From sequence record PV808484.1: a stretch of 64,000 nucleotides of DNA. One strand, given 5' to 3'. Shown here one piece after another: positions 3,819-60,943 of the stretch. Made by a program: the position numbers and the translations under genes. This stretch comes from a phage. Numbering within the stretch: position 1 is the stretch's first letter; every line of letters starts with the position of its first letter. The notes below the pieces were generated by a model. That model made no database searches, was not told the origin of the DNA, and worked only from the letters and a program-made list of their open reading frames with translations.

Positions 3819-4055
3819 ATGACTATAGCAACAGTATTAACCGCCGTTAAAACCGCCGAATCATCCGGCTTGCATGTTGAGATTATAGATCAACCAGGTG
3901 GCGATCTCCTTGTCCAGGTTTACCCGCCGAAAGTAGGGGATGATTATTATTGGTGCTATTCTGATACGTTCGAACAAGTAGACACGAAAGCGATCACGGC
4001 TTTTATTTTAAAAGCTATTGAAGAAAATAACTTTCATTATAACATCAATCAATAA
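3819..4055 (+). CDS. hypothetical protein
   Basis: internal ATG of ORF 3717..4055; the upstream part of that ORF overlaps the promoter. Confidence 0.45.
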   Translation: MTIATVLTAVKTAESSGLHVEIIDQPGGDLLVQVYPPKVGDDYYWCYSDTFEQVDTKAITAFILKAIEENNFHYNINQ

Positions 4056-4097
4056 ACCATAAGCGGGGCAGTAACGCCCACTAATGAGGGTAAAATC

Positions 4098-4202
4098 ATG
4101 TTAGAGAAAATTTTCACGGTTGTAGTAGTGGGCCTGGCGTTATCGGTTGGAGTGGTTGCAACTATGGCTAACATGATTCTATCTTCTCACGGTATTGGAT
4201 AA
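4098..4202 (+). CDS. small hydrophobic protein (34 aa)
   Basis: ATG 4098; predicted single transmembrane helix. Confidence 0.3.
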   Translation: MLEKIFTVVVVGLALSVGVVATMANMILSSHGIG

Positions 4203-4212
4203 GGTGAATCAA

Positions 4213-4428
4213 ATGATCACGAATAAGACAGGTAAAACAGAATTTTTACGCGGCTTGCAAATAGGTAAACCTGAGATCTGGCATTGCACTAAATCCGCGC
4301 ATAATGAAATGAAAGATTTTACCGCTACTTTACAACGTGTTAAAATATCTATCACACAGAAAAAAGCCTTGTTAGTAGTAGAAAACGAGATCCCGCAAAC
4401 TATTATTATTGTCGAGCGTACAGCATGA
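4213..4428 (+). CDS. hypothetical protein
   Basis: ORF track, start at internal ATG 4213. Confidence 0.4.
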   Translation: MITNKTGKTEFLRGLQIGKPEIWHCTKSAHNEMKDFTATLQRVKISITQKKALLVVENEIPQTIIIVERTA

Positions 4429-4811
4429 AAACAGAAATCATTATTGAAATCATCAACGGTTATAAAGAAGCCTTTATTTTTGCTGAATCCGCCAGGGATC
4501 ATGAAGGTAATTTTATTGATAACTTGACTGATTATGATTTTTCAGATCAAGCCCATCAGCGGATCATTCATGACGTAGCGGCTTATTGTGATGCCAATGA
4601 TGCCGCTATCTCTGAGGCAATGAGCGACGGCGCAACAGCCAACCAGATCGGGAATGATTTACATTTTACCCGTAATAGTCACGGCGTAGGCTTTTGGGAT
4701 CGCCCTGAAATATACACTACTAACACCGCCAACCGCTTAACTAATGCAGCTAAATTGATGCCATCGGTGCATGCTTACATTGGTGAAGATAATTTGATTT
4801 ATATTGAATAA
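4425..4811 (+). CDS. hypothetical protein
   Basis: ORF track; ATGA stop-start overlap with upstream gene. Confidence 0.5.
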   Translation: MKTEIIIEIINGYKEAFIFAESARDHEGNFIDNLTDYDFSDQAHQRIIHDVAAYCDANDAAISEAMSDGATANQIGNDLHFTRNSHGVGFWDRPEIYTTNTANRLTNAAKLMPSVHAYIGEDNLIYIE

Positions 4812-4876: not shown

Positions 4877-4899
4877 AGGTAATCAAAAAGGTAAATACT

Positions 4900-5289
4900 A
4901 TGCGCAACCTGGTTTCTGTTTCTAACGTTGAAAAATTTCAATCTTTACAGGGTATCGTTAACAACGTAGCGCCTTTTTTAGTCAACGGCTTGATTGCAAA
5001 GATGAAAAATAAACATCATGCGGCATGGTCTGCTTACTGCTTTGATAATGATGAAAAAGCGGCTGAAATGATGTTAAATATGCTGTTAGACAGTGTAGAA
5101 TCATCTTTACCGGAAAACATCGCAGAAGAGATCACCTATCGTTATAATATGGCGATCACTTACCAGGAGGTTGCGCAATTTAATATGATGGACGATGACG
5201 AACAACAGGATCAGGAAATTTTCTGGGAGTATGCAGATCGTCAATCGGCTTTTGATGAAAAGTTAGCGATGTATTATAACGAATATTAA
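4900..5289 (+). CDS. hypothetical protein
   Basis: start moved to ATG 4900; the ORF-track start at 4864 lies inside the leader hairpin. Confidence 0.45.
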   Translation: MRNLVSVSNVEKFQSLQGIVNNVAPFLVNGLIAKMKNKHHAAWSAYCFDNDEKAAEMMLNMLLDSVESSLPENIAEEITYRYNMAITYQEVAQFNMMDDDEQQDQEIFWEYADRQSAFDEKLAMYYNEY

Positions 5290-5984: not shown

Positions 5985-6059
5985 CTTGCTTTATTTCTTC
6001 TGTTAACTTATAGTTATCGCGTAGGGCAAACAATTTTAAACGGTAGACGAGGAATCACC

Positions 6060-6443
6060 ATGAGCAATATCATCAACCTGGCAGCGACTGTAAACGGTAA
6101 AGACTTTAACGGCGCTGTAGACCGTGATCCTATGTGGTGCTTATCAGTGTTTAAAGGCGATCTGGTTGAAGTTAGAACAACCGAAGGGTATAGCGATGAT
6201 TATAAATGCGAGATCCATTTACATAACTGGTACACGGGGAAAACTTATGCGCTGAATCACGCGTTTATCGGGAAAATTGAATATCGCGAGATGATCGACG
6301 ATGAAACGGGGCAAGATTTTAGTGATTATGTTTATATTCGTTCAGAAACATTAGCCGAACGTTTGATCGAGAAAATGAAAGCAAAAAATAAAATTAATTT
6401 AGCTCATTGGCTTGATATAACAAATGATCCGGCTTACAAGTAA
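6060..6443 (+). CDS. hypothetical protein
   Basis: ORF track; GAGGAA RBS. Confidence 0.5.
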   Translation: MSNIINLAATVNGKDFNGAVDRDPMWCLSVFKGDLVEVRTTEGYSDDYKCEIHLHNWYTGKTYALNHAFIGKIEYREMIDDETGQDFSDYVYIRSETLAERLIEKMKAKNKINLAHWLDITNDPAYK

Positions 6444-6459
6444 ATAACATTTCATACCA

Positions 6460-6485
6460 GGGCGCACAAAGCGCCCTTTCTTTTT
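6460..6485 (+). terminator. intrinsic terminator GGGCGC-ACAAA-GCGCCC plus T-run
   Basis: read directly. Confidence 0.6.
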
Positions 6486-6742
6486 ACCTAAATAAAGATG
6501 ATAGCTTTTACCTATCAAAAACATTCACCGAAAAAAGTGAATAGATCGCGGTATCGAGCTAATCAAGGAGCAGATGAACAACCATACCATGAAGATCATA
6601 AGGCGCTTACAACGTGTTTTAAACCGCTTATTTTTAATTTCTCCATGTAACTATCTGGCAAAAACAGCCTTTTTCGTGTCTTTCCTCTTAAGTGATAATC
6701 ATTCTTATTTATAGCTGATTATTTATGCAATAAACTGCATAA

Positions 6743-21155: not shown

Positions 21156-21968
21156 TTACTTAGTCAAATGATCTTCTATCATTTTTATGAAAGCAGGATT
21201 GCTAAAAGCATCTGCTGCCTTTTCTCTATAAACAAAGACTCCTCTATCTTCGTAAAGAAGAGTTTCTTCGTAATTAATTCCTGGGTTAACAACAATCATT
21301 TTTGTACCCATATTAAGTGCAGGGAATAATTCCCAATTAAAATTGATAACTTGGTTTGAACATCCTACTACAACAACCAAATCTTGCATGGTCAAAGTAT
21401 CAAACAAGTGAGCCATATCTGCATACAAAGGTGCAGCCTCACCAAAAAATACAACATTAGGCTTCACCCAGTTATAATCATCTATGTTTATACTATTGTA
21501 ACCAATGTCTACCAGTGTTTTGTAATCTCCAGGATGCATACGGTAAACTACTTCAGGAAGATACCCGTGCACGTGAATAACAGAATCCCTGTCCACACCT
21601 GCTCGCTCTAGTAGATCATCAACGTTTGTTGTCAAGTTTACTACTTGGTTAGGATATTCCTTAAACCACTTTGCTATTTGAATATGTGCAGCATTAGGTT
21701 GTACATCTTTAAGCTCAACACGTCTTTTGTTATAAAATTCGTGTGTTTTGGCATACAAGTCCATACCGTTCTCGTCTACACCACCGACCACTGGAAGATC
21801 TGGAGATGTTCTCACACGATAACCTGCTTGGAAAGCTCCAATATCGCAGACCTCTTCTAAGTCATATTCTTCCCATAAGGCACGACCACTATCTGTGTCT
21901 GTTCGGAACGTTCGAATCCCACTGTCTGCACTTAAACCTGCGCCACTAACAAAAATTACTCTTCGCAT
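21156..21968 (-). CDS. sirtuin-like (Sir2/CobB family) NAD-dependent protein
   Basis: GAGLSADSGIRTFR, NVDDLLERAG, HVHGYL and VVFFGE match sirtuin signature blocks in order. Confidence 0.75.
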   Translation of the reverse strand: MRRVIFVSGAGLSADSGIRTFRTDTDSGRALWEEYDLEEVCDIGAFQAGYRVRTSPDLPVVGGVDENGMDLYAKTHEFYNKRRVELKDVQPNAAHIQIAKWFKEYPNQVVNLTTNVDDLLERAGVDRDSVIHVHGYLPEVVYRMHPGDYKTLVDIGYNSINIDDYNWVKPNVVFFGEAAPLYADMAHLFDTLTMQDLVVVVGCSNQVINFNWELFPALNMGTKMIVVNPGINYEETLLYEDRGVFVYREKAADAFSNPAFIKMIEDHLTK

Positions 21969-21979: not shown

Positions 21980-22525
21980 TTAGTAATCATCATCCCAAGA
22001 AGATGCGTCGTAACGCTCTTCCTCTTCGAAATCCCAATTAATTTCTACTCCAAAATCTAAAAACAATTTAACAATGTTTTCTGTAGAGTAGTATTTATCA
22101 TAAGCATTAGCTAGTTCCCAATACTTGTCACTCAATTTTTTATATTTAGGATCATTATAGTCATAATCTACTTTATAACCATAATCATACATCTCTTGTT
22201 CAGCTTTAAGCATAGCTTCTGGTGTAAGAAGATTAGGGAACGGACGATTTCTTTCTTTTAACTTAGAAGCAATCCAGTTTGCAACATTCGCCACTTCACC
22301 ATCTCGATTATCACCTAAACAACTTGCATAATCTCCATCTTCGTAAGTGCCTAAATCCCCACTAACTTCATGTACAATAGACGAATACGATCCACACGTT
22401 TCACAATCTGAAAAAGTGTCTACTGTTGTAATATCAATAGATAAAACTGGTAAAGCCATAGCTTCTTTCACACAAGCCTCCTCATATAATAACATGTCAT
22501 CAAAACCCATATATCCTCCAGACAA
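21980..22525 (-). CDS. hypothetical acidic protein
   Basis: ORF track. Confidence 0.45.
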   Translation of the reverse strand: MSGGYMGFDDMLLYEEACVKEAMALPVLSIDITTVDTFSDCETCGSYSSIVHEVSGDLGTYEDGDYASCLGDNRDGEVANVANWIASKLKERNRPFPNLLTPEAMLKAEQEMYDYGYKVDYDYNDPKYKKLSDKYWELANAYDKYYSTENIVKLFLDFGVEINWDFEEEERYDASSWDDDY

Positions 22526-24702: not shown

Positions 24703-24784
24703 GCTAAACTCCTCTTCTGTTTTTCTGTAGTCTATTCGAAAAAACTGGTGTTGTCAACAAAAAACCCGCCGAAGCGGGTTTATA

Positions 24785-25042
24785 TTATTCTACAGGAACT
24801 TCTTCACCAAGAGAAACTTCTAAACGGAATGCTTTACTTTCAATACATTCACTACCTTTTAAGAAATCGAATTGCACTATAGACTGACTTAATAGAATAG
24901 ATAGAATCACATCGCAATCTTCACTAGGGGCTAGATGTTTGTATTCTTCCTTCAAGGTAACATCATAAAAACATAAGTCCCCTACTCCTAGTTCATCCCA
25001 TCCTTCCCATGCATCTACAAAGTTAAATTCTAAACCTTTCAT
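24785..25042 (-). CDS. hypothetical protein
   Basis: ORF track. Confidence 0.4.
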   Translation of the reverse strand: MKGLEFNFVDAWEGWDELGVGDLCFYDVTLKEEYKHLAPSEDCDVILSILLSQSIVQFDFLKGSECIESKAFRLEVSLGEEVPVE

Positions 25043-25563
25043 ACAACCTCCTCGTAATCGTTATTGTGTTTTACTGTCTCAACATACAATAAAGATTCCA
25101 TCTGTAATACATTACCAGAAAGAATAAACCCATAAGCCATTTCAGATGTGTCTATATCATATGCCCCGTCTTCCGGTTTAGCAAAGTGTAAAACTATTTC
25201 ATCTGGGTTTTCTGCATCCCATAGTTTAGAAATTTTCCGAACCAGAATGTTAGCTAAAATAGTTGACATTCGGGATAAAGCTGTATCCTCATATCTTTTA
25301 AAACCTAGCCAATAGAGGTTAAGAATTTCTACTTCTTCTTGTGTTAAGTTTTTGTCTAAAGTAATCAGATCTGTAGAGCACGGCGTTTTTGTTGAACCTA
25401 CTGTTACAAAACCTGGAGTGTTATGAAAAACAATCTTAACTTTATCACGTATAAAGTTTAAACCTTGTGCCTCAACTATATATTGTATTGTAGGTACAAT
25501 ATCGTTTGTTACATCAATAAAACTATCTTTAATGACGCTTATATTATTTCTGGACAAGACCAT
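25039..25563 (-). CDS. hypothetical protein
   Basis: ORF track. Confidence 0.45.
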   Translation of the reverse strand: MVLSRNNISVIKDSFIDVTNDIVPTIQYIVEAQGLNFIRDKVKIVFHNTPGFVTVGSTKTPCSTDLITLDKNLTQEEVEILNLYWLGFKRYEDTALSRMSTILANILVRKISKLWDAENPDEIVLHFAKPEDGAYDIDTSEMAYGFILSGNVLQMESLLYVETVKHNNDYEEVV

Positions 25564-26122
25564 TCTCCTCTAAAATAGGCTTAATAAATTCGAAAATTTG
25601 TTTTTTACTTTTACCTCGAATATTAAAACAAGGAACATTAAACTTTTTAGCCAACATCCAAGCTGTTCTTGTACCACCTAAAGGATCTCCATTTTTATCT
25701 GTATTTGCACAAGCTAAAAGAAAACAAGATGGTTTTGGATTCTCAAGATCTCTTCCAAGAACTTGGTGGATATTTCTTTGATGTAATTTTTTAGCACCTT
25801 GAGATAATCTGTCCCAAGCTGGATGCAATTCTTTTGCATATTGCAAGGTTAGAGCATAGTTTACACTATCTGGTCTGTCAAGAACAATAACCTCTCCCTC
25901 TATTTCATTACCTTTAAACGAGAGCCAAGGGATGTATATTTCTTTCTTTGTATTGTTCCCACTATCATATACCCCGCATTCAAATGCGGAATCTGCACCT
26001 TCTGCTTTACCGGATCGCAAAATGAACCATGTAGATAACCATTTTGCAACAGATACCATAGTATCCCATTCTTCGTCTGTAATATCTCTGCTACCAACAC
26101 CTGTGTAGAATAAATCGCTCAT
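25544..26122 (-). CDS. Rossmann-fold nucleotide-binding protein, possibly SLOG/DprA-like
   Basis: start moved to ATG 26122 (AAGGAG RBS); YTGVGSRDIT and GKAEGADSAFECG glycine-rich loops; family assignment tentative. Confidence 0.35.
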   Translation of the reverse strand: MSDLFYTGVGSRDITDEEWDTMVSVAKWLSTWFILRSGKAEGADSAFECGVYDSGNNTKKEIYIPWLSFKGNEIEGEVIVLDRPDSVNYALTLQYAKELHPAWDRLSQGAKKLHQRNIHQVLGRDLENPKPSCFLLACANTDKNGDPLGGTRTAWMLAKKFNVPCFNIRGKSKKQIFEFIKPILEENGLVQK

Positions 26123-26132
26123 GGTTTTCTCC

Positions 26133-26453
26133 TTAACAAGTAATATTGGGAGTAACAATTGGATTAACAATTGGAGTAATAGGGTACGTAAACCAAGGGC
26201 TTCCAATTTCCCAAGGATAATAAGGTCTACGAGGATCGTATGGAGGAGTTACTTCAGGCTTTTTCCAAATCTCCGCTAATTGTTTCTTCCATTTATCCCT
26301 TGCTGTCTCATTATCTTCATCCAACTGTTCATCATTATCTTTTATTTCTGGTTTTGGAAATAAAAGCTCTTTGACTAATTCAACATCTTCCGTCTCAATA
26401 GTAGTTTCTTTCGTAAGTTCTCCTACTGTTTCTTTAATTGTGATTTTATACAT
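26133..26453 (-). CDS. hypothetical Pro-rich protein
   Basis: ORF track. Confidence 0.4.
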   Translation of the reverse strand: MYKITIKETVGELTKETTIETEDVELVKELLFPKPEIKDNDEQLDEDNETARDKWKKQLAEIWKKPEVTPPYDPRRPYYPWEIGSPWFTYPITPIVNPIVTPNITC

Positions 26454-27199
26454 TAGTCCTCCTCTAAAGTAGAATAAAATTGTAACGTATTTGAATCATC
26501 AAAATATGCAAAGGTTAAATTACCATTGAAGCAAGATCCTGTGTCCATATATACCCTATTACTGCTAATCACAGGTTTAGGAACATAAGAATGCCCGTGA
26601 AATACATAATCTACTCCTGAAACCCTAGGAAGAAGAATTCCTTCAAGTGCGCAATCTATCATATCACGATCCCACATTAAAGATTCTGTGAATCGAGAAA
26701 CTTGCTCTTTATTCATATTCAAACAAAATGGCAAAACTTCTGTCACTGGCAAATGTTCCAAAACTGAAGGATACCCACCGTGAATAAAGCCTAGTTTCAT
26801 ATTACGATAATTGACAACAAGTACAACAGGTAAATCTTCTAGCATCAAAGCAAGAGCAGTTGCACCCTCTTCTCCACACTCGTCTAGAACTGTATGGCCT
26901 CCGTTCTGAAACCAACATTCGTAATATCGTCTATCACCTTCTAGCAACCCTTTAATCATCATATCTTCATGGTTCCCACGAATAGCATAACGATTTAGCT
27001 TTCTGGTGAATTCAACAACACAACGAAAATTCTGCTTGCCGCGATCTGTAAGATCTCCTAAAGATACAACAACATCTTGATCTCGGATACCTAAAGTATT
27101 AACACCTTTCTGGTACAAATCAAAGCAACCATGTAAATCACCAATAATAAACAGGTCTTGATCATCTTTTACACTAATTTCTTGATATACTAACATCAA
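26453..27199 (-). CDS. PPP-family Ser/Thr protein phosphatase (lambda-phosphatase-like)
   Basis: GDLHG, GDLTDRG and GNHE metallophosphoesterase motifs in canonical order. Confidence 0.85.
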   Translation of the reverse strand: MMLVYQEISVKDDQDLFIIGDLHGCFDLYQKGVNTLGIRDQDVVVSLGDLTDRGKQNFRCVVEFTRKLNRYAIRGNHEDMMIKGLLEGDRRYYECWFQNGGHTVLDECGEEGATALALMLEDLPVVLVVNYRNMKLGFIHGGYPSVLEHLPVTEVLPFCLNMNKEQVSRFTESLMWDRDMIDCALEGILLPRVSGVDYVFHGHSYVPKPVISSNRVYMDTGSCFNGNLTFAYFDDSNTLQFYSTLEED

Positions 27200-27532: not shown

Positions 27533-28105
27533 TTAATGTGTTAATGAAACTGCGTAGCTAAACACAGGTTCAGATATTACATCGGCTACAGTAATAAAAA
27601 CGTCTTCGTCTTGAGTTGTTTCTACACGACATACAGTTACACCATTCACCACGAATTCAACGCAATGTGGAATATTTTCACAAACGAAGGTAGTGTAAGT
27701 AACACCCAAAGCATCATACAAAGATTTAACAGTGTTTGCAAGTGCCGCAGTTTCTTCTTTTTCTGAGACAATGAATGCTGTAACAACAAGATTGTTTGCA
27801 TAGTTTAGACTGTCCTCTATAGCCAATGATTTACAAGGTAGTAATGCAAAATATTTACCTGGTTTAATCAGACCTGCTTCCCATTGATTCAAAATTGCCT
27901 GGGATGGTTTAGTAATATAAAACAGATTTTCACTTGGGTTATCAATATTACTTCTGGCGATACAACGTGAAGGATTATTAATATCAAACACATGATCAAA
28001 ATCTACACAAACAGGTAAACTGAAAGGTGTGAATTTTTTACCTAATAATCCTATGGCTGATAATATGTTTGCTGTGCTTATCTTCCCGTTAAAAGCTAAA
28101 CGCAT
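27533..28105 (-). CDS. hypothetical protein
   Basis: ORF track. Confidence 0.45.
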   Translation of the reverse strand: MRLAFNGKISTANILSAIGLLGKKFTPFSLPVCVDFDHVFDINNPSRCIARSNIDNPSENLFYITKPSQAILNQWEAGLIKPGKYFALLPCKSLAIEDSLNYANNLVVTAFIVSEKEETAALANTVKSLYDALGVTYTTFVCENIPHCVEFVVNGVTVCRVETTQDEDVFITVADVISEPVFSYAVSLTH

Positions 28106-30465: not shown

Positions 30466-31119
30466 TTAATTATCAGAGGACACTTTATCAAGTTTTTCAG
30501 AGACTGTCAATACTTTTTCTTGTGATTCTTTCATTTCTGCTAAAATACTTTCAGCTTCATCACTATCAGGATCACCAGTCAACAGCATACTAATTAGTTG
30601 CTCCTTGCTGAAGTTCAGAATATCTTCCGCTGTTAACTCCAGTTGTTCTTCGATCTCTTCGATAAAAGTTTCACCGCCTGAAAAAGCATCTCGCAGTTTT
30701 GCAACTTCCATCGCTTCTTCTGGGGTTGCCCCAGCGTCTAAAGCTGCTAAAGCAAAATCTGCCCCACTACCCACAGCATAATAATCTTCAGTTAAAGGAT
30801 ATGCTCGCGTTGGATTATTACCCTCGTGCATATAAATTTTACCGTCTGGGTGAACAACCAATGCCACAAACTCTTCATCTTCTTTATCAGGATCTGACTG
30901 GATCACCAAACCTGGGATTGTCTCTTGTGCTGCTTGGCATTGTAAGTTTTGTTCGAACCAAGAAAAGAAAGTCAGGATAGAAGACAGACGTCCTGCACCA
31001 CCAACAAGGTAATCCCCAATTTTACGCACTTTCTTGAAATTTAAAGTGTCTACACGACTACCTACTGTTACCTTACCGTCAGACAGAATTTTGTTACGTG
31101 TTGCAATAATTGTTGTCAT
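30466..31119 (-). CDS. HslV/proteasome beta-subunit-like N-terminal-nucleophile peptidase with acidic C-terminal extension
   Basis: MTTIIATR (Thr2), KKVRKIGDYLVGGAG and YAVGSGADFALAA align with the HslV N-terminus, Gly-rich loop and GSG block. Confidence 0.6.
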   Translation of the reverse strand: MTTIIATRNKILSDGKVTVGSRVDTLNFKKVRKIGDYLVGGAGRLSSILTFFSWFEQNLQCQAAQETIPGLVIQSDPDKEDEEFVALVVHPDGKIYMHEGNNPTRAYPLTEDYYAVGSGADFALAALDAGATPEEAMEVAKLRDAFSGGETFIEEIEEQLELTAEDILNFSKEQLISMLLTGDPDSDEAESILAEMKESQEKVLTVSEKLDKVSSDN

Positions 31120-33098: not shown

Positions 33099-33365
33099 TT
33101 ACTCCGCAATCTGAGCCATGAATTCACGTAGTTCAGAAAAACCTCCTACGTGGGTTAGCTGTTCACCATCTTCCACAAAAATCTGAGGAAATGTGCGTGG
33201 TAGAACACCTGTTTTCTCTAAAACCAGATTCTGAATCTGATCTAAAGAATAGTCTTCATCTAAGGTAAGGTATTTAAAATCCTGTTCACGCTGTTCTAGT
33301 AGAATCTTAGCGTTAGTGCAGAAAGGACAATTTGGTTTACCGTAGATAATAAAATTCATTTTCAC
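33099..33365 (-). CDS. glutaredoxin/NrdH-like redoxin
   Basis: N-terminal IYGKPNCPFC active site; next to the nrd genes. Confidence 0.8.
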   Translation of the reverse strand: MKMNFIIYGKPNCPFCTNAKILLEQREQDFKYLTLDEDYSLDQIQNLVLEKTGVLPRTFPQIFVEDGEQLTHVGGFSELREFMAQIAE

Positions 33366-34192
33366 TCCTTGTTTAAAAGTATAGTTAAAGTTCTTACAAT
33401 ACCGCTATCAACACTTCGCGGATTTAAAGTAGGATCTGTTTTTAAATAAGATGTTGCTGGTCTGACTGCTTTGGAATTATAGGTTGAAGCAGACACAGGA
33501 TTAACTGTAACAGATAAATCTATAACAAGAAATATCTTTCGTGCAAAATCATACCAAGAAATATAATCTGCACCTGCATAGTGTACAATTTTACTATTTA
33601 CACCATCTTTTACAAGTTTAAAAATTGTTTCTGCAAGATCAGGTGCATAAGTAGGACATGATAAATGATCACATACTACATTAAATTCTTTTTGACCACC
33701 GTTGTAGCGTTCCAACATAGTTTTCAAAAAGTTATGTCCAAATTCACTATAAACAGAAGCTGTTCTGATAATAAGTGCTGTAGGACAAACTGTTTGTACT
33801 AAAGTTTCACCTAATTGTTTACTGTAACCGTAGGTGTTCAAGGGGTTTGTTTTACTATCTTCTGTGCCAGCAACATGCCCATCAAAAACATAGTCTGTTG
33901 AAATATGTACAAACTGTATCAGTAAATCATTACATGCTTTGGCAATGTTTGTTGCACCGTATGCATTAACATTTATACAGGTGTTAACATCTTCTTCAGC
34001 TTTATCTACTGCCGTGTAAGCCGCACAATTCACAACAACATCAGGCACATGCTGTACAAGACTATTCATAACATCTTTAAAGTTGGTAATGTCTATATCA
34101 CTTGCTTCAATCAAAACAACATCTTCTGGTGCAACTTTTGCCAAAGATTGTCCTAATTGACCTTTTGATCCAAAGACTAAAAATTTTGTCAA
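33362..34192 (-). CDS. rmlD: dTDP-4-dehydrorhamnose reductase
   Basis: VFGSKGQLGQSL N-terminal Rossmann motif, VNCAAYTAVDKAEED, STDYVF, YGYSK; last gene of the rml operon. Confidence 0.85.
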   Translation of the reverse strand: MTKFLVFGSKGQLGQSLAKVAPEDVVLIEASDIDITNFKDVMNSLVQHVPDVVVNCAAYTAVDKAEEDVNTCINVNAYGATNIAKACNDLLIQFVHISTDYVFDGHVAGTEDSKTNPLNTYGYSKQLGETLVQTVCPTALIIRTASVYSEFGHNFLKTMLERYNGGQKEFNVVCDHLSCPTYAPDLAETIFKLVKDGVNSKIVHYAGADYISWYDFARKIFLVIDLSVTVNPVSASTYNSKAVRPATSYLKTDPTLNPRSVDSGIVRTLTILLNKE

Positions 34193-34743
34193 AGTATGAT
34201 CTCCTTTAGTGTTTTTGCTTCCTGATCTTTTTGTGACAAGATAGGTTTAAAATTAATATCATTAAAGATTAAATCAAAACCCCAATCTATATTGATATCT
34301 GGATCATTCCACGCAAGACTACATTCTGAAGTCGGATCGTAATATTCTGTACATTTATATTCAAAATCAGCAATATCGCTAATCACAACAAAGCCATGAG
34401 CGAAACCAGGAGGAATCCAAAATTGTGTTTTATTCTTTTCAGATAAGAGAACACCTACCCATTCTCCAAATGTTGGACTACCAACCCTAATATCTACAGC
34501 AACATCATAAACTTCACCACGAACACAGCGTACTAACTTCCCTTGTGGGTTTTTCTTTTGAAAATGAAGCCCACGTAGAACTCCTCGGATAGAACGTGAA
34601 TGGTTATCTTGGACAAAGTTTTGTTTACCTATGTATTGATCATATAAAGCCTGATTAAAACTTTCTAAGAAAAAGCCACGTTCATCTCCGTAAACGTCAG
34701 GTTGAATGATCAACAAATCTTCGATTTTTGTTGCTTGAATCAT
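34189..34743 (-). CDS. rmlC: dTDP-4-dehydrorhamnose 3,5-epimerase
   Basis: DERGFFLESF, RGLHFQ and WIPPGFAHGF cupin motifs. Confidence 0.85.
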   Translation of the reverse strand: MIQATKIEDLLIIQPDVYGDERGFFLESFNQALYDQYIGKQNFVQDNHSRSIRGVLRGLHFQKKNPQGKLVRCVRGEVYDVAVDIRVGSPTFGEWVGVLLSEKNKTQFWIPPGFAHGFVVISDIADFEYKCTEYYDPTSECSLAWNDPDINIDWGFDLIFNDINFKPILSQKDQEAKTLKEIIL

Positions 34744-34755
34744 TTAATTCCCCTT

Positions 34756-35625
34756 TTATTTTAATTTAAGTAAATACTTACCGTAGTCTGTTTTACTTAA
34801 AACCTCTCCAGAACTTTTTACAGAGTCTAAAGTAATCCATTCATTTTTAAAAGCAATCTCTTCCAGGCATGCAACCTTCATACCTTGTTGCTTCTCTATT
34901 GCATGAACAAATTGAGATGCTTCCATAAGACTTTCATGTGTTCCTGTATCCAGCCAAGTGAAACCTCTTCCTAGCTTACAGACACGTAAAGCCTTTTCTT
35001 TCCAGTACATCTCATTTATATCTGTGATCTCTAACTCCCCTCTAGCAGAAGGCTTAACGCTTTTAGCTTTCTGTATAACAGAATTATCGTAAAAGTACAA
35101 GCCTGTAATTGCATAGTTGCTTTTTGGTGCTTTTGGTTTTTCTTCAATACTTACTACTGTACCTTCAGAATCAAACTCAACAACACCAAATCTTTCAGGA
35201 TCATTTACGTGATACCCAAAAATATTAGCTCCACCATTCTTTTCAATATGTTCTCTAGCAGAATCTAAAATGCTACCAAAACTCTGACCAAAGAATAAAT
35301 TATCACCTAGAACAAGTGCTACAGAATCTTCACCAATAAAGCTCTCACCAATAATAAACGCTTCTGCTAAACCTTTTGGGCTGTCCTGTATTGCATACTG
35401 TAGGGAAACACCAAAAGAAGAACCATCACCTAGAAGATTTACAAAATTAATTTGATCTTCTGGTGTTGTAATTATTAGTATTTCCCTAATTCCAGAAAGC
35501 ATTAGGACAGAGAGTGGATAATAAATCATAGGTTTATCGTAAATTGGTAATAGTTGTTTACTAACCCCTTTAGTAACTGGGTAAAGTCTTGTCCCACTAC
35601 CACCCGCTAAGATAATACCTTTCAT
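34756..35625 (-). CDS. rmlA: glucose-1-phosphate thymidylyltransferase
   Basis: [39 protein letters not shown] is close to the enterobacterial RfbA N-terminus. Confidence 0.95.
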
Positions 35626-35633
35626 ACTCCTCC

Positions 35634-36623
35634 TTAAACTTTATTTTCCCACCACTCTTTGTTATCTACATACCAATCAATGGTTGAATAAAGTTTTTCT
35701 TCAAATGTGCCTTTAGCTTTCCACCCTAATTCCTTTTCAATCTTATAAGGATTCACTTCATATCTTAAATCATGCCCAGGTCTATCTGTAACCATCTCAA
35801 TGAGGCTACAAGCATCTGTTTCAGATGGATATACCGCATCCATATAATCACAAATCATATAGATTACATCAATATTAGTTCTAGGGTTTCTGCTCCCAAT
35901 ATTATATGTCTCTCCAGATTTGCCTTTAGTTACTACCAGGTGTAATGCTTCTGCGTGATCATCAACGTATAGCCAATCTCTTACTTGAAGACCATCGCCA
36001 TAAACAGGGATTGGTTTATTCATTAAGATATTTGTTATCGTCTTAGGTATTAGTTTTTCTGGATGATGATATGCTCCAAAATTATTTGAACAATTTGTTA
36101 TAACTGTCGGAATACCATAAGTACGATGCCACGCTCTTACCAAATGATCGCTTGCAGCTTTAGATGCAGCATATGGACTACTTGGTTTATAAGGATTCTG
36201 TTCTGTAAACGGATAATCCCCTTCTTCCATATCACCATACACTTCATCTGTTGAAATATGATGGAACATTTTAAGATTTGATTTATCTCCCATTAAACGA
36301 ACAGCTTCTAGAAGATTAAATGTTCCAACAATATTTGAATTTATAAAAACACTCGGTGATGCTATTGAATTATCTACGTGACTCTCTGCTGCAAGATGCA
36401 TTATATAATCTGGATTAACATCTGCCACAATCTTAGCAGTTAACTGCGCATTTGTCAAGTCAACACGACAAAACTTTACATTAGGTGTTTCTGATAAATT
36501 TCTAGGGTCTGAAGCGTAACCCCATTTATCTATAACGTAAATATCATTCTTAGTATTTTTAGCTAGGAAACGAACTACCGCACTTCCAATAAAGCCTAAA
36601 CCACCTGTTACTAAGTATTTCAT
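35634..36623 (-). CDS. rmlB: dTDP-glucose 4,6-dehydratase
   Basis: [19 protein letters not shown], catalytic [11 protein letters not shown] (YxxxK), ISTDEVYG. Confidence 0.9.
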
Positions 36624-51880: not shown

Positions 51881-52285
51881 TTATTGTAGCTTAAGTGAAC
51901 TGCGAAGACGTTTCTCTTGCTGATCACGAATATGTTGTGGAACCTCATGAATTGAGTCGTTACCGTGCCTATTTTCAACAACTAAAGAGATAACTTGATA
52001 ACCAAACTCTTCAGCAAGAGTAAAATAAGGTTTAAGTTCTTTCTCTGTGGTTGAAGTGTTAGAGACAATAATCTTTTTAATATTAGACTGCATAGCATCA
52101 CGAACAATGACTCGACACCATGCGTGTGCTTTACCTACATTCTCTGGCTTCCAATCGTAAACACCACTTTCTGTGTAATGATATTGATCTGCCTCACAGA
52201 TAGGCCAATAACCTTCAGAAATAATTTCTGCTACTGTAGATTTACCTGCACCTGAAACACCACGTAAAATGATAAGTTGTTTCAT
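51881..52285 (-). CDS. P-loop polynucleotide kinase-like protein
   Basis: ILRGVSGAGKST Walker A; short kinase-only protein. Confidence 0.6.
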   Translation of the reverse strand: MKQLIILRGVSGAGKSTVAEIISEGYWPICEADQYHYTESGVYDWKPENVGKAHAWCRVIVRDAMQSNIKKIIVSNTSTTEKELKPYFTLAEEFGYQVISLVVENRHGNDSIHEVPQHIRDQQEKRLRSSLKLQ

Positions 52286-53218
52286 TTAGCCTCCAAAGAA
52301 GTTTTCTATTTCTTTACGTCGCTCTTGTGGATCTAGAGCAGCCCATTGAACCTTCGTAAAATTATTTCGAAGCCATTCTAGCAAAGTATAATATTCTTCG
52401 TCAACAATTTGTTTAGCATTTTTTGGGTTGTCCCAAATCATATCCCACTTCTTATTGCCACCACGCATAAGGAATTTCTTAGCAAGATAGTATGGTGACT
52501 TAATCTTTAAAAGTAAGTTAAACGGATAGTTTGTTTCACGAACAACAAAGCCTTCGTGTCTACAATGTTTAGACATTTCAACAACATCTGAAAATTTAAT
52601 CATTGGATAAACTTCAGGACGTTTAAACTTTGTAATAGATGCAATCCCATCAAGAACACCTTCAGGTAACATGAAACTTGTCCCATCAAGATTTTGAATT
52701 CTTGCTCCAATTAAGTATGCGCCTGGTTCTTCTTCGACAATATGTGGATCAGAAGGATCACAGATTTCAAAAAGGAAAGTTGCTTTTGCACTTTCTGTCC
52801 ACTTAATGAAATACTCTATGTCGTCACACTCGGAAACAATACGGTTCTTTGCCATAATTGCAAAATCTGATTCTAGGCTCCCTGTTGTTGATACAACAAG
52901 TTTCCCTTTGTACACACCTACAGATGCCATAAAACCGTTTACTTTACGGACAGCATCTACAAGCTGGTCTGCTGGAAGATCTGTACCATTCTCAAAACGA
53001 TTAAAGATTTTAGTAAAAGGCCAAATAACAACATTGTCTTCTGAGTCAACAACCAACCCACGACAATATAGAAGCCGTTTGTCAACGTTCCACAAATTAT
53101 CCCAGAATACATTGTTTTTGTATTTAAGTACAGCAAGACCAGCATACTCTCCAGATTTAACTTCTTTTTTATGCACTAAACCTTTTGCAATCAGGTCATC
53201 ACAATTGAACTTAGCCAC
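52286..53218 (-). CDS. RNA ligase-like nucleotidyltransferase
   Basis: motif I KVNGF, motif IV EGFVVR, motif V KIKSPYY. Confidence 0.6.
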   Translation of the reverse strand: MAKFNCDDLIAKGLVHKKEVKSGEYAGLAVLKYKNNVFWDNLWNVDKRLLYCRGLVVDSEDNVVIWPFTKIFNRFENGTDLPADQLVDAVRKVNGFMASVGVYKGKLVVSTTGSLESDFAIMAKNRIVSECDDIEYFIKWTESAKATFLFEICDPSDPHIVEEEPGAYLIGARIQNLDGTSFMLPEGVLDGIASITKFKRPEVYPMIKFSDVVEMSKHCRHEGFVVRETNYPFNLLLKIKSPYYLAKKFLMRGGNKKWDMIWDNPKNAKQIVDEEYYTLLEWLRNNFTKVQWAALDPQERRKEIENFFGG

Positions 53219-53219
53219 C

Positions 53220-53771
53220 TTAATCTCCTTTGATTATCTTATGATGGTCTACAACAACAATATCACGCTTATCCATAATAGAGATGATTTCGTCAAAATG
53301 CAAGATTTTCCCGTGTGCATCCCAACCAACATCCAACATCTTCCCATACAAATGATCAGGGAATGATCCGTGAGAGTGTCCGTGTAGCATGATTGATCCA
53401 TGCCCTTGTTTATTCCAGGCAGCCATAGGGTAATGGCTTAAGACGAAAAACAGCTTCTGATATTTCACTTCGTCATAATAAACCACTTCTCCATACTCTG
53501 CAAGCACTTTTCTGTGTTTACTGTAATCATGGTTCCCAACACAGTAAGTAATATCCCCTTGGAGACGGGAAGCAATCTTACGGGTATCTTCTTCAGTCCC
53601 GAAACAGAAGTCCCCAAGATGGTACATCTTTACTCCTGGTGTTGTGGCACATTTATTCCATGCTTCGATCAGTGCTTCTGTCATATGCTCCATATCTTCC
53701 CACGGGCGATATTCAGGAGCAAACTCTCGGATACGTTTGTGCATAAAATGCAAATCACTTGTAATAAACAT
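53220..53771 (-). CDS. calcineurin-like metallophosphoesterase
   Basis: SDLHFMH, HLGDF and GNHDY motifs. Confidence 0.7.
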   Translation of the reverse strand: MFITSDLHFMHKRIREFAPEYRPWEDMEHMTEALIEAWNKCATTPGVKMYHLGDFCFGTEEDTRKIASRLQGDITYCVGNHDYSKHRKVLAEYGEVVYYDEVKYQKLFFVLSHYPMAAWNKQGHGSIMLHGHSHGSFPDHLYGKMLDVGWDAHGKILHFDEIISIMDKRDIVVVDHHKIIKGD

Positions 53772-56677: not shown

Positions 56678-57571
56678 ATGAAAGTTAGTATTCTACATGG
56701 TGTTGACTGTTATGTTACTGATGTAGACGTTAAAGTGTTTACATTCTCTGGTGGAGAACAACATGTTCAATTAGATACGAACCTGTCAGGTTTCAATCAT
56801 GCTACAGACAGAATCTTACTCACATTAGAAGTAAGATCTGCTAAAGACTTGATGACTTTGGTTATGACTAAGAATGCATTGGACAATATGCTATATCATA
56901 AACCATATTGTGTTGATTTACTCATGTTGTATGTACCGTATGCACGACAAGACAGAGTGTGTGAGCCTGGGGAAGCATTTGGAGTTAAAGCATTTGCTTC
57001 TATAATTAACTCATTAAATTTCTCACGTGTTATCGTTGCTGATCCACACAGTGATGTTACTCCAGCAGTGTTTGACAGACTCTGTGTAATACCTCAAGAA
57101 GAGATTGCTTACGAAACTTTAAAATGGAAGTTACGTATGGAGAATTTTGCTCTTGTTAGTCCTGATGGTGGTGCTCTTAAGAAAATATTTAAATTATCTA
57201 AGAAAATGTCTTTAGATGTGTTCTGTGCAGAGAAGGTTAGAGATACCGCAACAGGTGCTATTGTTCGTACAGACATTTCTGTACAGGATTTCAATAAGCG
57301 TAACCTGATGATCGTAGACGATATCTGTGATGGTGGTAGAACTTTTATCGAATTGGCTAAAGTGCTACGTGCTCGTAACGCAGGTAAGATTGAGCTATAT
57401 GTTACACACGGTATCTTTTCTAAAGGTCTTAAAGAGTTAAGTGAGCACTTTGACTGCATTCATTCTCTTAATATATGGGAAGATAACATCCAAGAAGATT
57501 CCGGTGTTCTTGTTAAGAATCAGTCAGATTTGCAACAACAAATTGTATCTCCATACGTGTGGAATTTTTAA
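56678..57571 (+). CDS. prs: ribose-phosphate pyrophosphokinase (Prs)-like enzyme; candidate ADP-ribose pyrophosphokinase
   Basis: YVPYARQDR, VIVADPHSD and MIVDDICDGGRTF phosphoribosyltransferase-type blocks aligned to Prs. Confidence 0.8.
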   Translation: MKVSILHGVDCYVTDVDVKVFTFSGGEQHVQLDTNLSGFNHATDRILLTLEVRSAKDLMTLVMTKNALDNMLYHKPYCVDLLMLYVPYARQDRVCEPGEAFGVKAFASIINSLNFSRVIVADPHSDVTPAVFDRLCVIPQEEIAYETLKWKLRMENFALVSPDGGALKKIFKLSKKMSLDVFCAEKVRDTATGAIVRTDISVQDFNKRNLMIVDDICDGGRTFIELAKVLRARNAGKIELYVTHGIFSKGLKELSEHFDCIHSLNIWEDNIQEDSGVLVKNQSDLQQQIVSPYVWNF

Positions 57572-57581
57572 ATAATAAGTG

Positions 57582-57625
57582 TTGACAATAGGGAGTATGC
57601 TTAGTAAGATACTCCCACACTAACA
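57582..57625 (+). promoter_or_regulatory. TTGACA promoter plus leader hairpin GGGAGTAT-N-ATACTCCC
   Basis: read directly upstream of ATG 57643. Confidence 0.45.
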
Positions 57626-57642
57626 AACAAGGAGACATAACT

Positions 57643-60270: not shown

Positions 60271-60356
60271 GCAAGTGTGGTGGAATTGGTGATACACATT
60301 GTGCTTAAAACGCAACGCTTAAATGATTGAGGGTTCGAATCCCTCCACTTGCACCA
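60271..60356 (+). tRNA. tRNA-Leu (anticodon TAA), class II
   Basis: acceptor GCAAGTG/CACTTGC, T-arm GAGGG-TTCGAAT-CCCTC, anticodon loop CTTAAAA, long variable arm, encoded CCA. Confidence 0.7.
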
Positions 60357-60358
60357 AC

Positions 60359-60464
60359 GCCTAGTAGGGTATTTGGTAATTCCGAGGCCATCAAAGCCTG
60401 AAAAATATGTTAGACCGCTTTGTCTAACTAAATACGAAATATGGTTCGATTCCATAACTAGGCT
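60359..60464 (+). tRNA. atypical 106 nt tRNA-like element
   Basis: perfect 7 bp acceptor GCCTAGT/ACTAGGC and canonical T-arm TATGG-TTCGATT-CCATA, but about 30 nt too long; candidate anticodon loop CATCAAA. Confidence 0.3.
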
Positions 60465-60497
60465 TCAATTTAAATAGTAATTTTAGTAAAAAATATC

Positions 60498-60526
60498 TTG
60501 ACATTTACTTAGTTTTTTGTTATAGT
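60498..60526 (+). promoter_or_regulatory. promoter TTGACA-17-TATAGT driving downstream tRNAs
   Basis: read directly; ideal 17 bp spacing. Confidence 0.55.
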
Positions 60527-60537
60527 CGTTATGAAAA

Positions 60538-60619
60538 CGGGGTGTATCTCACCTGACTTCTAATCAGGCGTTAACCGAGTAATTGGAGTATGCAGGTTCG
60601 AATCCTGTCACCCCGGCCA
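60538..60619 (+). tRNA. tRNA-like element, possible tRNA-Arg (anticodon loop CTTCTAA) with irregular D region
   Basis: perfect acceptor CGGGGTG/CACCCCG, T-arm GCAGG-TTCGAAT-CCTGT, CCA; perfect stem-loop CCTGA-CTTCTAA-TCAGG; cloverleaf not resolved. Confidence 0.4.
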
Positions 60620-60682
60620 AAAAGTTTTAAAAACTACTTGACAAGCAAGATAGTTTTATGTTAGATTTAAAGTATGATAACT

Positions 60683-60772
60683 GGAAGGTAGGGCGCAGCG
60701 GTGCGCAACCAGGTTTGAACCCTGGCCCATTGTAGCGATACGGTGATGGTTCGACTCCATTATCTTCCTCCA
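60683..60772 (+). tRNA. tRNA-Ser (anticodon TGA), class II
   Basis: acceptor GGAAGGT/ATCTTCC, D-arm GCGC-AGCGGT-GCGC, anticodon arm CCAGG-TTTGAAC-CCTGG, 19 nt variable arm, T-arm GATGG-TTCGACT-CCATT, CCA. Confidence 0.8.
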
Positions 60773-60790
60773 AATTCAATGAGTGATTTT

Positions 60791-60943
60791 ATGAATTATA
60801 AAACTATTGGACAGGTTGTTACCGGAGTTAAGATTGTAAATAATAAAGTTGTTTATGAGTATTCTAATCTTCAACAATCTGAAGATGGTAAGAATATTCG
60901 TATGGTAAAAGCAGAACAAAAAGATTCCGGTTGTTTTGAATAA
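60791..60943 (+). CDS. hypothetical protein (50 aa)
   Basis: internal ATG of ORF 60743..60943; the upstream part overlaps tRNA-Ser. Confidence 0.35.
   Translation: MNYKTIGQVVTGVKIVNNKVVYEYSNLQQSEDGKNIRMVKAEQKDSGCFE

What the first reader, a model, noticed from the sequence alone, without database searches (positions are those of the whole stretch)
25544..27199. Rossmann-type nucleotide-binding protein next to a lambda-type Ser/Thr phosphatase
The 192 aa protein at 25544-26122 has glycine-rich loops (YTGVGSRDIT, GKAEGADSAFECG) that recall SLOG or DprA-like ligand-binding Rossmann domains, but I cannot place the family with confidence. It lies two genes from a clear PPP phosphatase. SLOG domains bind nucleotide-derived signals in several defence systems, so a phage copy could be a signal sponge, and the phosphatase could reverse host kinase-based signalling.
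Basis: inference. Interest (0 to 1): 0.4.

Follow-up and report, generated by a model that had tools for sequence, protein, structure and literature searches.

The report
Phage DprA-like SLOG nucleotide-binding protein
The gene is phage phi92 gp047, an already catalogued "DprA-like" member of the SLOG family of nucleotide-binding Rossmann domains; it is very common in phages and conjugative plasmids, its function has never been tested, and it most likely grips an ADP-ribose-type or DNA nucleotide as part of the phage's counter-defence.

Summary

It keeps both published DprA pocket motifs (G-S-R; L-x-x-R-N). It lacks the LOG catalytic motif, the other DprA domains and any Pfam hit above threshold. 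Close relatives are fused to NADAR, DUF4326 and Macro domains, not to recombination domains.

The database label "recombination mediator" is therefore weakly founded. I favour a non-catalytic pocket protein that binds an ADP-ribose-bearing nucleotide, free or on ssDNA, in counter-defence.

Linkage to the phosphatase is real but limited: 6 of 38 dereplicated clusters, in two unrelated phage lineages.

Already known; modest interest.

The parts
25544..26122 (-). SLOG-superfamily, DprA-like single-domain protein, 192 aa (phi92 gp047; PHROG 768)
26129..26134 (-). Ribosome-binding site AAGGAG, 6 nt upstream of the ATG; it overlaps the gp048 stop codon
   Evidence: Read from the sequence. The phi92 record annotates an AGGAG RBS at the same place.
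26087..26095 (-). G10-S11-R12, the loop after strand 1; this is DprA signature motif 1 (G-S/T/A-R)
   Evidence: G10 and R12 invariant, S11 in 97% of 71 homologues. Motif defined in PMC3950713.
25991..26011 (-). G38-x-A40-x-G42-x-D44, the glycine-rich loop after strand 2
   Evidence: All four named residues invariant. The profile aligns this stretch to SGLA(R/K)GID of solved DprA proteins.
25772..25786 (-). L113-H114-Q115-R116-N117; this is DprA signature motif 2 (F/L/Y-x-x-R-N/D), the base-orienting helix
   Evidence: L113 in 97%; H114, R116 and N117 invariant. Motif defined in PMC3950713.
25661..25678 (-). G149-G150-T151-R152-T153-A154, the loop after strand 4; it corresponds to DprA SGSxxTA and has no LOG-type glutamate downstream
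   Evidence: G149, G150 and T151 invariant; T153 and A154 in at least 97%; position 156 is Glu in only 4 of 71. HMMER aligns the stretch to HpDprA SGSMSSA.
26133..26453 (-). gp048, a 106-aa protein of unknown function lying between the phosphatase and the SLOG gene
   Evidence: PHROG 15301 (unknown function) E 5.9e-52; no Pfam hit.
26453..27199 (-). Lambda/NinI-type PPP metallophosphatase (phi92 gp049; annotated ATG at 27196)
   Evidence: PF00149 E 6.1e-14; PHROG 246 E 4.2e-77; NCBIfam PrpA/PrpB-like E 9e-28 and 6e-24, both below the equivalog cut-offs. All metal-binding motifs present.
25039..25563 (-). gp046, 174 aa, unknown function; its start overlaps the SLOG gene's 3' end by 20 nt
   Evidence: PHROG 8569 E 1e-54; coordinates.
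24762..24781 (.). Bidirectional intrinsic-terminator-like hairpin (8 pairs, 5 of them G-C) that closes the phosphatase-gp048-SLOG-gp046-gp045 gene string
   Evidence: No comparable hairpin lies between 24785 and 27199.

Best explanation
gp047 is a stand-alone SLOG-superfamily Rossmannoid domain. It belongs to a very large family carried by mobile elements (PHROG 768), whose nearest characterised relative is the DprA Rossmann domain. It keeps the single-nucleotide pocket of that clade: the G-S-R loop, the L-x-x-R-N helix and the GGTxTA loop. It has no LOG-type catalytic glutamate and no DprA accessory domains. I therefore read it as a non-catalytic pocket protein. It is encoded in a tightly packed gene string together with a lambda-type phosphoesterase. 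Its most likely job is to grip an ADP-ribose-bearing or related nucleotide, either a free NAD-derived signal or a modified or unmodified base on single-stranded DNA. That would help the phage establish infection against NAD+/ADP-ribose-based host defences, rather than load RecA. Shown here: the gene, the fold, the conserved pocket motifs, the absence of the LOG motif, the distribution, and the fusion partners of relatives. Inferred: the ligand, the lack of catalysis, the counter-defence role and the timing of expression.

For: Pocket: invariant G10, R12, G38, A40, G42, D44, H114, R116, N117, Q120, G149, G150 and T151 across 71 homologues that are 40-77% identical.

Not an LOG-type enzyme: there is no PGGxGTxxE motif; the Glu position is variable and is Glu in 4 of 71.

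Fusions in close relatives (profile E 1e-50 to 1e-69): NADAR in P0121, P0122, P0143 and P0193; DUF4326 in P0072, P0209, P0220 and P0222; Macro in a 415-aa plasmid protein. No fusion to SAM, DML1 or recombinase domains was seen. NADAR and Macro are the enzymes that remove ADP-ribose, for example T4 AdfN against DarT1 (PMC11825919).

Same phage: it also encodes a sirtuin four genes downstream, plus PRPP synthetase and Nampt, so it invests in NAD+.

Mobile-element distribution: at least 1,247 phage records; 26 plasmids, 12 of them conjugative. On pNL1 it sits among SSB, SRAP, DUF736 and DUF1173 genes.

Published predictions and precedent: Iyer et al. 2022 (PMC9503650). A remote SLOG relative, DruSM1 ORF83 of the YAcAr family, has an anti-Avs type III phenotype (10.1101/2024.04.14.589459). 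I matched its orthologue to phage Seurat gp80.
Against: No ligand was tested.

The two best-conserved motifs are exactly those that bind a thymine of ssDNA in H. pylori DprA. Foldseek ranks DprA first. A plain ssDNA-binding role is therefore not excluded and may be the whole story.

The fusion partners act on ADP-ribosylated DNA as well as on soluble molecules, so they do not separate the two ligand classes.

The experimentally supported anti-defence SLOG (ORF83) is a different family, PF10686, related only at superfamily level (9.9 bits; hhalign probability 13%). Its phenotype cannot be transferred.

No Macro, NADAR or DUF4326 gene was found in this window.
Confidence: 0.45

Rival explanations
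1. It is what the databases call it: a minimal DprA-like recombination mediator or ssDNA-binding protein. It would bind phage ssDNA through the G-S-R / L-x-x-R-N pocket and either load a recombinase (host RecA) or protect replication and recombination intermediates.
Against: The query gives no PF02481 hit at all, and all homologue hits tabulated individually (19.1-20.8 bits) are below the 29.6-bit cut-off and cover only the first two motifs. The SAM and DML1 domains are absent. The family has a neutral median pI of 7.0. No RecA/UvsX-type recombinase is annotated in the 50 kb examined. The fusion partners are ADP-ribose hydrolases, not recombination proteins. HpDprA needs a dimer with two pockets for tight ssDNA binding, and I could not test a dimer interface here.
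Confidence: 0.25
2. It is an enzyme: an LOG-like N-glycosidase (phosphoribohydrolase) that cleaves the base from AMP, a cADPR isomer or another nucleotide. This is what was proposed for viral SLOG domains and for DruSM1 ORF83.
Against: The PGGxGTxxE motif with the catalytic Glu is absent and the equivalent position is variable. There is no Pfam LOG hit. The only invariant acidic residue, D44, is also conserved in non-catalytic DprA. The motif pattern matches DprA, not LOG.
Confidence: 0.1
3. The SLOG protein and the adjacent metallophosphoesterase form a two-gene module acting on one substrate. For example, the SLOG holds an ADP-ribose or nucleotide derivative, or a nucleic-acid end, while the phosphoesterase removes a phosphate. 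This would parallel the SLOG-DUF4326 fusions.
For: The phosphatase is the most recurrent neighbour: 6 of 38 dereplicated clusters, always upstream on the same strand. The phosphatase / small ORF / SLOG order recurs in a phage lineage (L056, L062, L070) that shares no other neighbouring gene family with phi92; there the two proteins are only 28-30% and 36-37% identical to the phi92 ones. In L041 a DUF4326 gene lies between the phosphatase and the SLOG gene. In the window the genes are packed without a terminator in between. From my own knowledge: lambda phosphatase also has 2',3'-cyclic phosphodiesterase activity (Keppetipola & Shuman 2007).
Against: 32 of 38 clusters have no phosphatase within 6 kb. 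Three of the six positive clusters belong to one broadly syntenic lineage. The phosphatase is closest to the protein phosphatases PrpA, PrpB and NinI. Large phages pack many unrelated early genes together.
Confidence: 0.15
4. It mimics ShosA, the DprA-like antitoxin of the ShosTA defence system, and replaces the unstable host antitoxin during infection.
Against: No PADLOC model, including ShosA, matches gp047 at E <= 1. ShosA needs its SAM domain, dimerisation and RecA binding, and gp047 has only the core domain. ShosA is a weaker structural match than DprA, LOG or Moco carrier protein.
Confidence: 0.05

Closest known systems
DprA/Smf Rossmann-fold domain (Pfam PF02481; H. pylori DprA 4LJR/5MLL, S. 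pneumoniae DprA 3UQZ)
   Different: Only 14-21% identity. Below the Pfam threshold. No SAM or DML1/winged-helix domains. A family-specific helical insert (about residues 70-112) with its own invariant residues (H100, H114, Q120). Fusion partners are ADP-ribose-processing domains. Dimerisation and RecA contact are unknown.
Viral SLOG domains fused to Macro/NADAR/DUF4326, as described by Iyer, Burroughs, Anantharaman and Aravind 2022 (PMC9503650)
   Same: Same superfamily. Relatives of gp047 show the same fusion partners. Same occurrence in medium and jumbo phages. Usually stand-alone.
   Different: That paper places most viral SLOG domains in the 'YpsA-like clade' and predicts degradation or sensing of cADPR. 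No experiment exists. I could not check whether gp047 itself was in their set, because no supplement is held.
DruSM1 ORF83 / phage Seurat gp80 (Pfam PF10686, YAcAr; anti-Avs type III phenotype)
   Same: A small stand-alone phage SLOG domain with the same order of motifs: G-G/S-R, G-x-A-x-G-x-D, P-W, R-N, GG-x-x-T.
   Different: A different family: 130 aa; only 9.9 bits to the gp047 profile; hhalign probability 13%. It has a PGGAGT-x-D loop closer to LOG. Its phenotype cannot be transferred to gp047.
LOG / PpnN phosphoribohydrolases (PF03641)
   Different: gp047 lacks PGGxGTxxE and its catalytic Glu, and has the G-S-R loop that LOG lacks.
ThsA SLOG domain (Thoeris effector sensor, 7UXS) and phage signal sponges (Tad1, Tad2, Acb2, Acb4)
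   Different: ThsA is a weaker match than DprA or LOG. The sponges named here (Tad1, Tad2, Acb2, Acb4) are, to my knowledge, not SLOG-fold proteins, and the sponge papers I checked describe no Rossmann- or DprA-like sponge.
Lambda phosphatase NinI / E. coli PrpA, PrpB (for the neighbouring gene)
   Same: PPP metallophosphatase with all metal-binding motifs. PHROG 246.
   Different: Below the NCBIfam equivalog cut-offs (97.7 bits against 326). The substrate is unknown.

Membership tests
SLOG superfamily (SMF/DprA-LOG Rossmannoid domains) | Three-layer alpha/beta sandwich with a parallel sheet, superposable on known SLOG members | tested here: met
SLOG superfamily (SMF/DprA-LOG Rossmannoid domains) | Conserved polar or glycine-rich loops after strands 1, 2 and 4, and a conserved Arg in the helix after strand 3 | tested here: met
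   Invariant G10/R12, G38/A40/G42/D44, R116/N117 and G149/G150/T151.
DprA/Smf (PF02481) | Pfam model above the gathering score (29.6 bits) | tested here: not met
   No hit for gp047 even at E <= 10. 47 of 71 homologues hit weakly (best E 3.6e-6); the homologue hits tabulated individually score 19.1-20.8 bits and cover only the N-terminal motifs.
DprA/Smf (PF02481) | Motif 1, G-S/T/A-R, in the loop that gates the pocket (Wang et al. 2014) | tested here: met
   G10-S11-R12, invariant or 97%.
DprA/Smf (PF02481) | Motif 2, F/L/Y-x-x-R-N/D, in the base-orienting helix (Wang et al. 2014) | tested here: met
   L113-H-Q-R116-N117: L in 97%, R and N in 100%.
DprA/Smf (PF02481) | Accessory domains (N-terminal SAM and/or C-terminal DML1/winged helix). 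These are typical but not universal. | tested here: not met
   192 aa forming one domain. No such domain was seen in 20 longer relatives scanned.
DprA/Smf (PF02481) | Dimerisation, ssDNA binding and RecA interaction | not testable with these tools
   Needs biochemistry or multimer modelling.
LOG phosphoribohydrolases (PF03641) | PGGxGTxxE motif with catalytic Glu | tested here: not met
   The loop is P-L-G-G-T-R-T-A-W-M. The Glu position is V, M, N or K, with Glu in 4 of 71. No Pfam hit.
YAcAr / DUF2493 SLOG family (PF10686; DruSM1 ORF83 type) | Pfam model match or profile-level relatedness | tested here: not met
   No PF10686 hit in gp047 or its stand-alone homologues. Seurat gp80 scores 9.9 bits against the gp047 profile. 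hhalign probability is 13.6% and the alignment is mis-registered.
ShosA antitoxin (ShosTA defence system) | Match to the PADLOC ShosA model; SAM + DprA architecture | tested here: not met
   0 PADLOC families at E <= 1. Single domain.
Nucleotide-signal sponge (functional class) | High-affinity, non-destructive binding of cADPR isomers or cyclic oligonucleotides; rescue of phage on Thoeris or CBASS strains | not testable with these tools
PPP (lambda/NinI-type) metallophosphatase, for the gene at 26453-27199 | GDxHG, GDxxDRG, GNHE, HGG and GH metal-binding motifs, and the Pfam Metallophos model | tested here: met
   GDLHG, GDLTDRG, GNHE, IHGG and HGH in the translation. PF00149 53.3 bits against a cut-off of 21.5. 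PHROG 246 E 4e-77.

The most novel reading that the evidence does not exclude
The PHROG 768 family is neither a RecA loader nor a free-signal sponge. It is a reader of ADP-ribosylated (or otherwise damaged) bases on single-stranded DNA. On this reading, the DprA-type one-base pocket docks onto DarT-type lesions and brings in, or is fused to, the Macro, NADAR or DUF4326 hydrolases. In phi92 the partner might be the neighbouring phosphoesterase. That would explain both the DprA-like motifs and the ADP-ribose-domain fusions, and why the family sits in phages and in conjugative-plasmid regions that also encode SSB. It would define a widespread anti-DNA-ADP-ribosylation module.
Probability: 0.12. 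Interest if true: 0.65.

Novelty: already known. Interest (0 to 1): 0.3.

Why it matters
This is one of the commonest uncharacterised accessory genes of large phages: at least 1,247 of 50,697 phage records and about 6,000 protein clusters at 50% identity. It also occurs on conjugative plasmids. It is routinely labelled a 'recombination mediator' on the strength of two short motifs. If it in fact binds ADP-ribose-type ligands or ADP-ribosylated DNA, it would be a broadly distributed counter-defence factor, and many genome annotations would be misleading. The gene, the family, its DprA-like fold and the counter-signalling hypothesis are all already in the public record. The value here is clarification, not discovery.

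Tried and rejected
1. Single-sequence searches of gp047 against Pfam, NCBIfam, PADLOC and PDB sequences gave nothing useful.

2. Profile-profile comparison (hhalign) of the family against the YAcAr family and against E. coli Smf was uninformative. Both gave about 13% probability and E about 0.002, and the YAcAr alignment was mis-registered. It cannot rank the two relationships.

3. I tried to transfer the anti-Avs type III phenotype of DruSM1 ORF83. I found its orthologue, phage Seurat gp80; residues R89, N90, T112 and D114 match the published numbering. It belongs to PF10686, a different SLOG family, so I rejected the transfer.

4. The ShosA-mimic idea has no sequence support.

5. I looked for NADAR and DUF4326 genes in the window using small HMMs built from the fused relatives. 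There were none.

6. The AlphaFold-database fold library was unavailable.

7. One literature search on Pfam family names (YAcAr, DUF2493, LDcluster4) returned only caiman papers.

8. Searches for any experimental study of PHROG 768 or phage 'DprA-like' proteins found only genome-annotation mentions.

9. My first gene calling on high-GC bacterial loci lost most SLOG ORFs. I redid it with a GC3-weighted choice.
Full report
**What the window is.** The 4.2 kb around the finding is 98.8-99.5% identical to the best-listed of the 56 matching Justusliebigvirus (phi92-like) coliphage records; identities across all 56 range from 95% upwards. The 192-aa protein is 100% identical to Escherichia phage phi92 gp047. 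The phi92 record annotates it as 'potential DNA processing protein like fold'. Other records call it 'putative DprA-like recombination protein' or 'DprA-like DNA recombination-mediator protein'.

**Observation check.** The ORF runs from ATG 26122 to TAA 25544 on the minus strand. An AAGGAG ribosome-binding site at 26129-26134 overlaps the stop codon of the upstream gene. The longer TTG-initiated ORF in the mechanical list (26206) is not the annotated gene.

The phosphatase (26453-27196/27199, phi92 gp049) is separated from the SLOG gene by one 106-aa gene, gp048. It has Pfam Metallophos at E 6e-14, PHROG 246 'NinI-like serine-threonine phosphatase' at E 4e-77, and every PPP metal-binding motif. 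It resembles E. coli PrpA and PrpB but scores below the equivalog cut-offs.

The genes phosphatase, gp048, gp047, gp046 and gp045 abut or overlap. The string ends at a strong bidirectional hairpin at 24762-24781. They are probably co-transcribed; this is an inference.

**Family and fold.** gp047 alone hits nothing in Pfam, NCBIfam, PADLOC or PDB sequences. It matches PHROG 768 at E 8.6e-60.

- tblastn finds a homologue in 1,247 of 50,697 phage records, in Pseudomonas, Klebsiella, Escherichia, Aeromonas, Vibrio, Acinetobacter and other phages, including jumbo, T4-like and N4-like phages.
- A profile of 71 homologues (alignment A1) finds 6,056 representatives of 50%-identity clusters, 2,111 of them at E <= 1e-30.
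- The AlphaFold model is very confident: pLDDT 96.8, pTM 0.92.
- Foldseek ranks H. pylori DprA first, at E 2.8e-5 and TM 0.58.
- The PDB profile search also picks DprA, but only over the first two motifs, at E about 0.1.

**Which SLOG family?** Wang et al. 2014 defined two motifs that identify an ssDNA-binding DprA domain. They are G-S/T/A-R, where Arg52 gates the pocket, and F/L/Y-x-x-R-N/D, where Phe140, Arg143 and Asn144 orient one base into the pocket. They contrast these with the LOG motif PGGxGTxxE (PMC3950713).

gp047 has G10-S11-R12 and L113-H-Q-R116-N117. These are invariant or nearly so in the family. The loop after strand 4 is GGT(R)TA(W), like DprA SGSxxTA. The LOG glutamate position is variable, with Glu in 4 of 71 sequences.

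By motifs, then, the protein belongs to the DprA clade and not to LOG, and it is probably non-catalytic. It is still not a bona fide DprA:

- There is no PF02481 hit for the query.
- Hits in 47 of 71 relatives are weak (best E 3.6e-6); those I tabulated individually score 19.1-20.8 bits, below the 29.6-bit cut-off.
- There are no SAM or DML1 domains.
- There is a family-specific helical insert with its own invariant residues: H100, H114, Q120, S132, W66.
- The family's median pI is neutral, 7.0.

**What the relatives are fused to.** Among the best 150 cluster representatives, 14 are longer than 250 aa. I scanned 20 longer relatives in all.

- Four carry NADAR: P0121, P0122, P0143 and P0193. 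P0121 and P0122 are about 1,480-aa proteins that also contain YAcAr and LDcluster4 SLOG copies.
- Four carry DUF4326: P0072, P0209, P0220 and P0222.
- A 415-aa plasmid protein carries a C-terminal Macro domain. A second plasmid hit (NZ_CP035502, H78) lies in a gene annotated 'macro domain-containing protein' but was not scanned.
- None carries a recombination domain.

This is exactly the architecture set that Iyer et al. 2022 reported for viral SLOG domains. From it they predicted that these domains sense or degrade ADP-ribose-derived immune signals (PMC9503650). The same group had earlier suggested that phage DprA/Smf proteins act as extra ssDNA-binding proteins (PMC7824862).

NADAR and Macro domains are now known to remove ADP-ribose from DNA bases modified by DarT toxins. 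T4 gp30.3, renamed AdfN, does this as a counter-defence (PMC11825919). The fusions therefore fit both a soluble-ligand reading and a DNA-lesion reading.

**Genomic context.** In 80 IMG/VR loci, which fall into 38 clusters at 70% identity, no neighbour is universal. The most recurrent is a homologue of the phosphatase, in 6 clusters, always upstream and co-directional.

Three of those clusters (L006, L012, L041) share wider synteny with phi92. The other three (L056, L062, L070) share no other neighbouring gene family with phi92, yet keep the order phosphatase / small ORF / SLOG. There the phosphatase is 28-30% identical and the SLOG 36-37% identical to the phi92 proteins. In L041 a DUF4326 gene lies between the two. 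This hints at functional coupling but is far from an obligate pair.

Other neighbours are ordinary early or nucleotide-metabolism genes: Dam-like methylase, RNR small subunit, ClpP-like protease, PhoH, PolA, HNH.

The window itself also encodes:

- a sirtuin (21156-21968);
- PRPP synthetase and Nampt (56678-59376);
- Dcm-like and Dam-like methylases;
- an RNA-repair set;
- an exonuclease-type 'recombination-associated' protein.

No RecA/UvsX is annotated in the 50 kb examined.

In bacteria the family sits on conjugative plasmids and ICE-like regions. There are 26 plasmids, 12 of them conjugative. Examples are pNL1, with DUF736, SRAP, DUF1173 and SSB genes nearby, and Solirubrobacterales loci with RepB-type primase and ParB. 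It is therefore a mobile-element establishment gene, not a housekeeping recombination gene.

**Experimental precedent.** I found no study of PHROG 768. The nearest is DruSM1 ORF83, annotated 'Smf/DprA', whose deletion sensitises the phage to Avs type III (10.1101/2024.04.14.589459). A later structural analysis predicted that it is an AMP-binding LOG-like enzyme (10.1101/2025.06.06.658234).

I located its orthologue in phage Seurat: gp80, 130 aa. Residues R89, N90, T112 and D114 match the published numbering exactly. It belongs to Pfam PF10686, YAcAr. It shares the order of motifs with gp047 but is related only at superfamily level, so its phenotype cannot be assigned to gp047.

ShosA, the DprA-like antitoxin of ShosTA, binds ssDNA and RecA (PMC12961424). 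It is a weaker structural match, and no PADLOC model hits gp047.

The most defensible mechanism is a non-catalytic, DprA-clade SLOG pocket protein that mobile elements use during establishment. It would bind an ADP-ribose-type nucleotide or a base on ssDNA, in the context of NAD+/ADP-ribose-based conflict. I give this confidence of about 0.45. A plain DprA-like ssDNA-binding or recombination role is the main rival, at about 0.25.

The specific 'sponge' and 'anti-kinase phosphatase' ideas are untested. The gene, its DprA-like fold and the counter-signalling hypothesis are already in the public record, so novelty is low. The family remains a large, experimentally untouched target with a probably over-confident database name.

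Noticed in passing
window 56678-57571 (+), 57643-59376 (+) and 21156-21968 (-): The phage encodes a PRPP synthetase and a nicotinamide phosphoribosyltransferase (an NAD+ salvage / reconstitution pair). It also encodes a sirtuin-family protein four genes downstream of the SLOG gene. The phage clearly manipulates NAD+.
   Followed up: partly
L056:5119-6552, L062:4954-6555, L070:5120-6555 (IMG/VR contigs of about 105 kb): A metallophosphatase, usually a 67-aa ORF (absent in L070), and the SLOG gene lie in the same order as in phi92. These phages share no other neighbouring gene family with phi92, and the two proteins are only about 28-37% identical to the phi92 ones. This may be a conserved two-gene module.
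   Followed up: partly
L041:3970-6633: Phosphatase (3970-4731), a DUF4326-like gene (4893-5249) and the SLOG gene (5989-6633) lie in one string. DUF4326 is elsewhere fused directly to this SLOG family.
   Followed up: no
L004:3656-4048 (Escherichia phage Seurat gp80): This 130-aa protein is the orthologue of DruSM1 ORF83, the reported anti-Avs type III gene; R89, N90, T112 and D114 match the published numbering. It belongs to Pfam PF10686 (YAcAr), not to DprA or PHROG 768. PHROGs assigns it to phrog_289 'GTP-binding domain'.
   Followed up: yes
window 33362-36623 (-): A complete dTDP-rhamnose pathway (RmlD, RmlC, RmlA, RmlB homologues) is encoded in the phage early/metabolic region. It could serve DNA or surface glycan modification.
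   Followed up: no
window 27533-28105 (-) and 21980-22525 (-): Two small proteins are annotated in relatives as 'putative aminoacyl-tRNA synthetase' or 'histidyl tRNA synthetase' (PHROG 4806 for the first). The first has no Pfam hit; the second was scanned only against PHROGs, where it matches phrog_9509 (unknown function). At 181-190 aa both are far too short to be synthetases.
   Followed up: no
window 30466-31119 (-): An HslV / 20S-proteasome-like peptidase gene (phi92 gp058, 'putative 20S proteasome') lies a few genes upstream. Phage Seurat has a similar HslV-family gene near its own SLOG gene.
   Followed up: no
window 51881-53771 (-): An RNA-repair-type cluster: polynucleotide kinase, RNA ligase and a second phosphoesterase (PHROG 547).
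   Followed up: no
window 24762-24781: A perfect 8-bp-stem bidirectional terminator hairpin is followed immediately by a TTGACA-type promoter-like site (24757-24729, - strand). It marks a transcription-unit boundary between gp045 and gp044.
   Followed up: partly
L168 (plasmid pNL1, NC_002033.1 66281-78739) and L087-L166: Bacterial copies of the family lie on conjugative plasmids or ICE-like regions next to DUF736, SOS-response-associated peptidase, DUF1173, SSB, RepB-type primase and ParB genes. This looks like a plasmid establishment or leading-region gene set.
   Followed up: partly
L128:5779-9795: One Sphingomonadaceae MAG has a 1,338-aa open frame with the SLOG domain at residues 73-236 and an SbcC/Rad50 Walker B segment at 1236-1294. 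This may be a real fusion or a read-through artefact of my ORF calling in high-GC DNA.
   Followed up: no
window 60271-62876 (+): A cluster of 14 tRNA genes follows the NAD+ salvage genes. Coordinates were transferred from the annotation of phage EmilieFrey.
   Followed up: no
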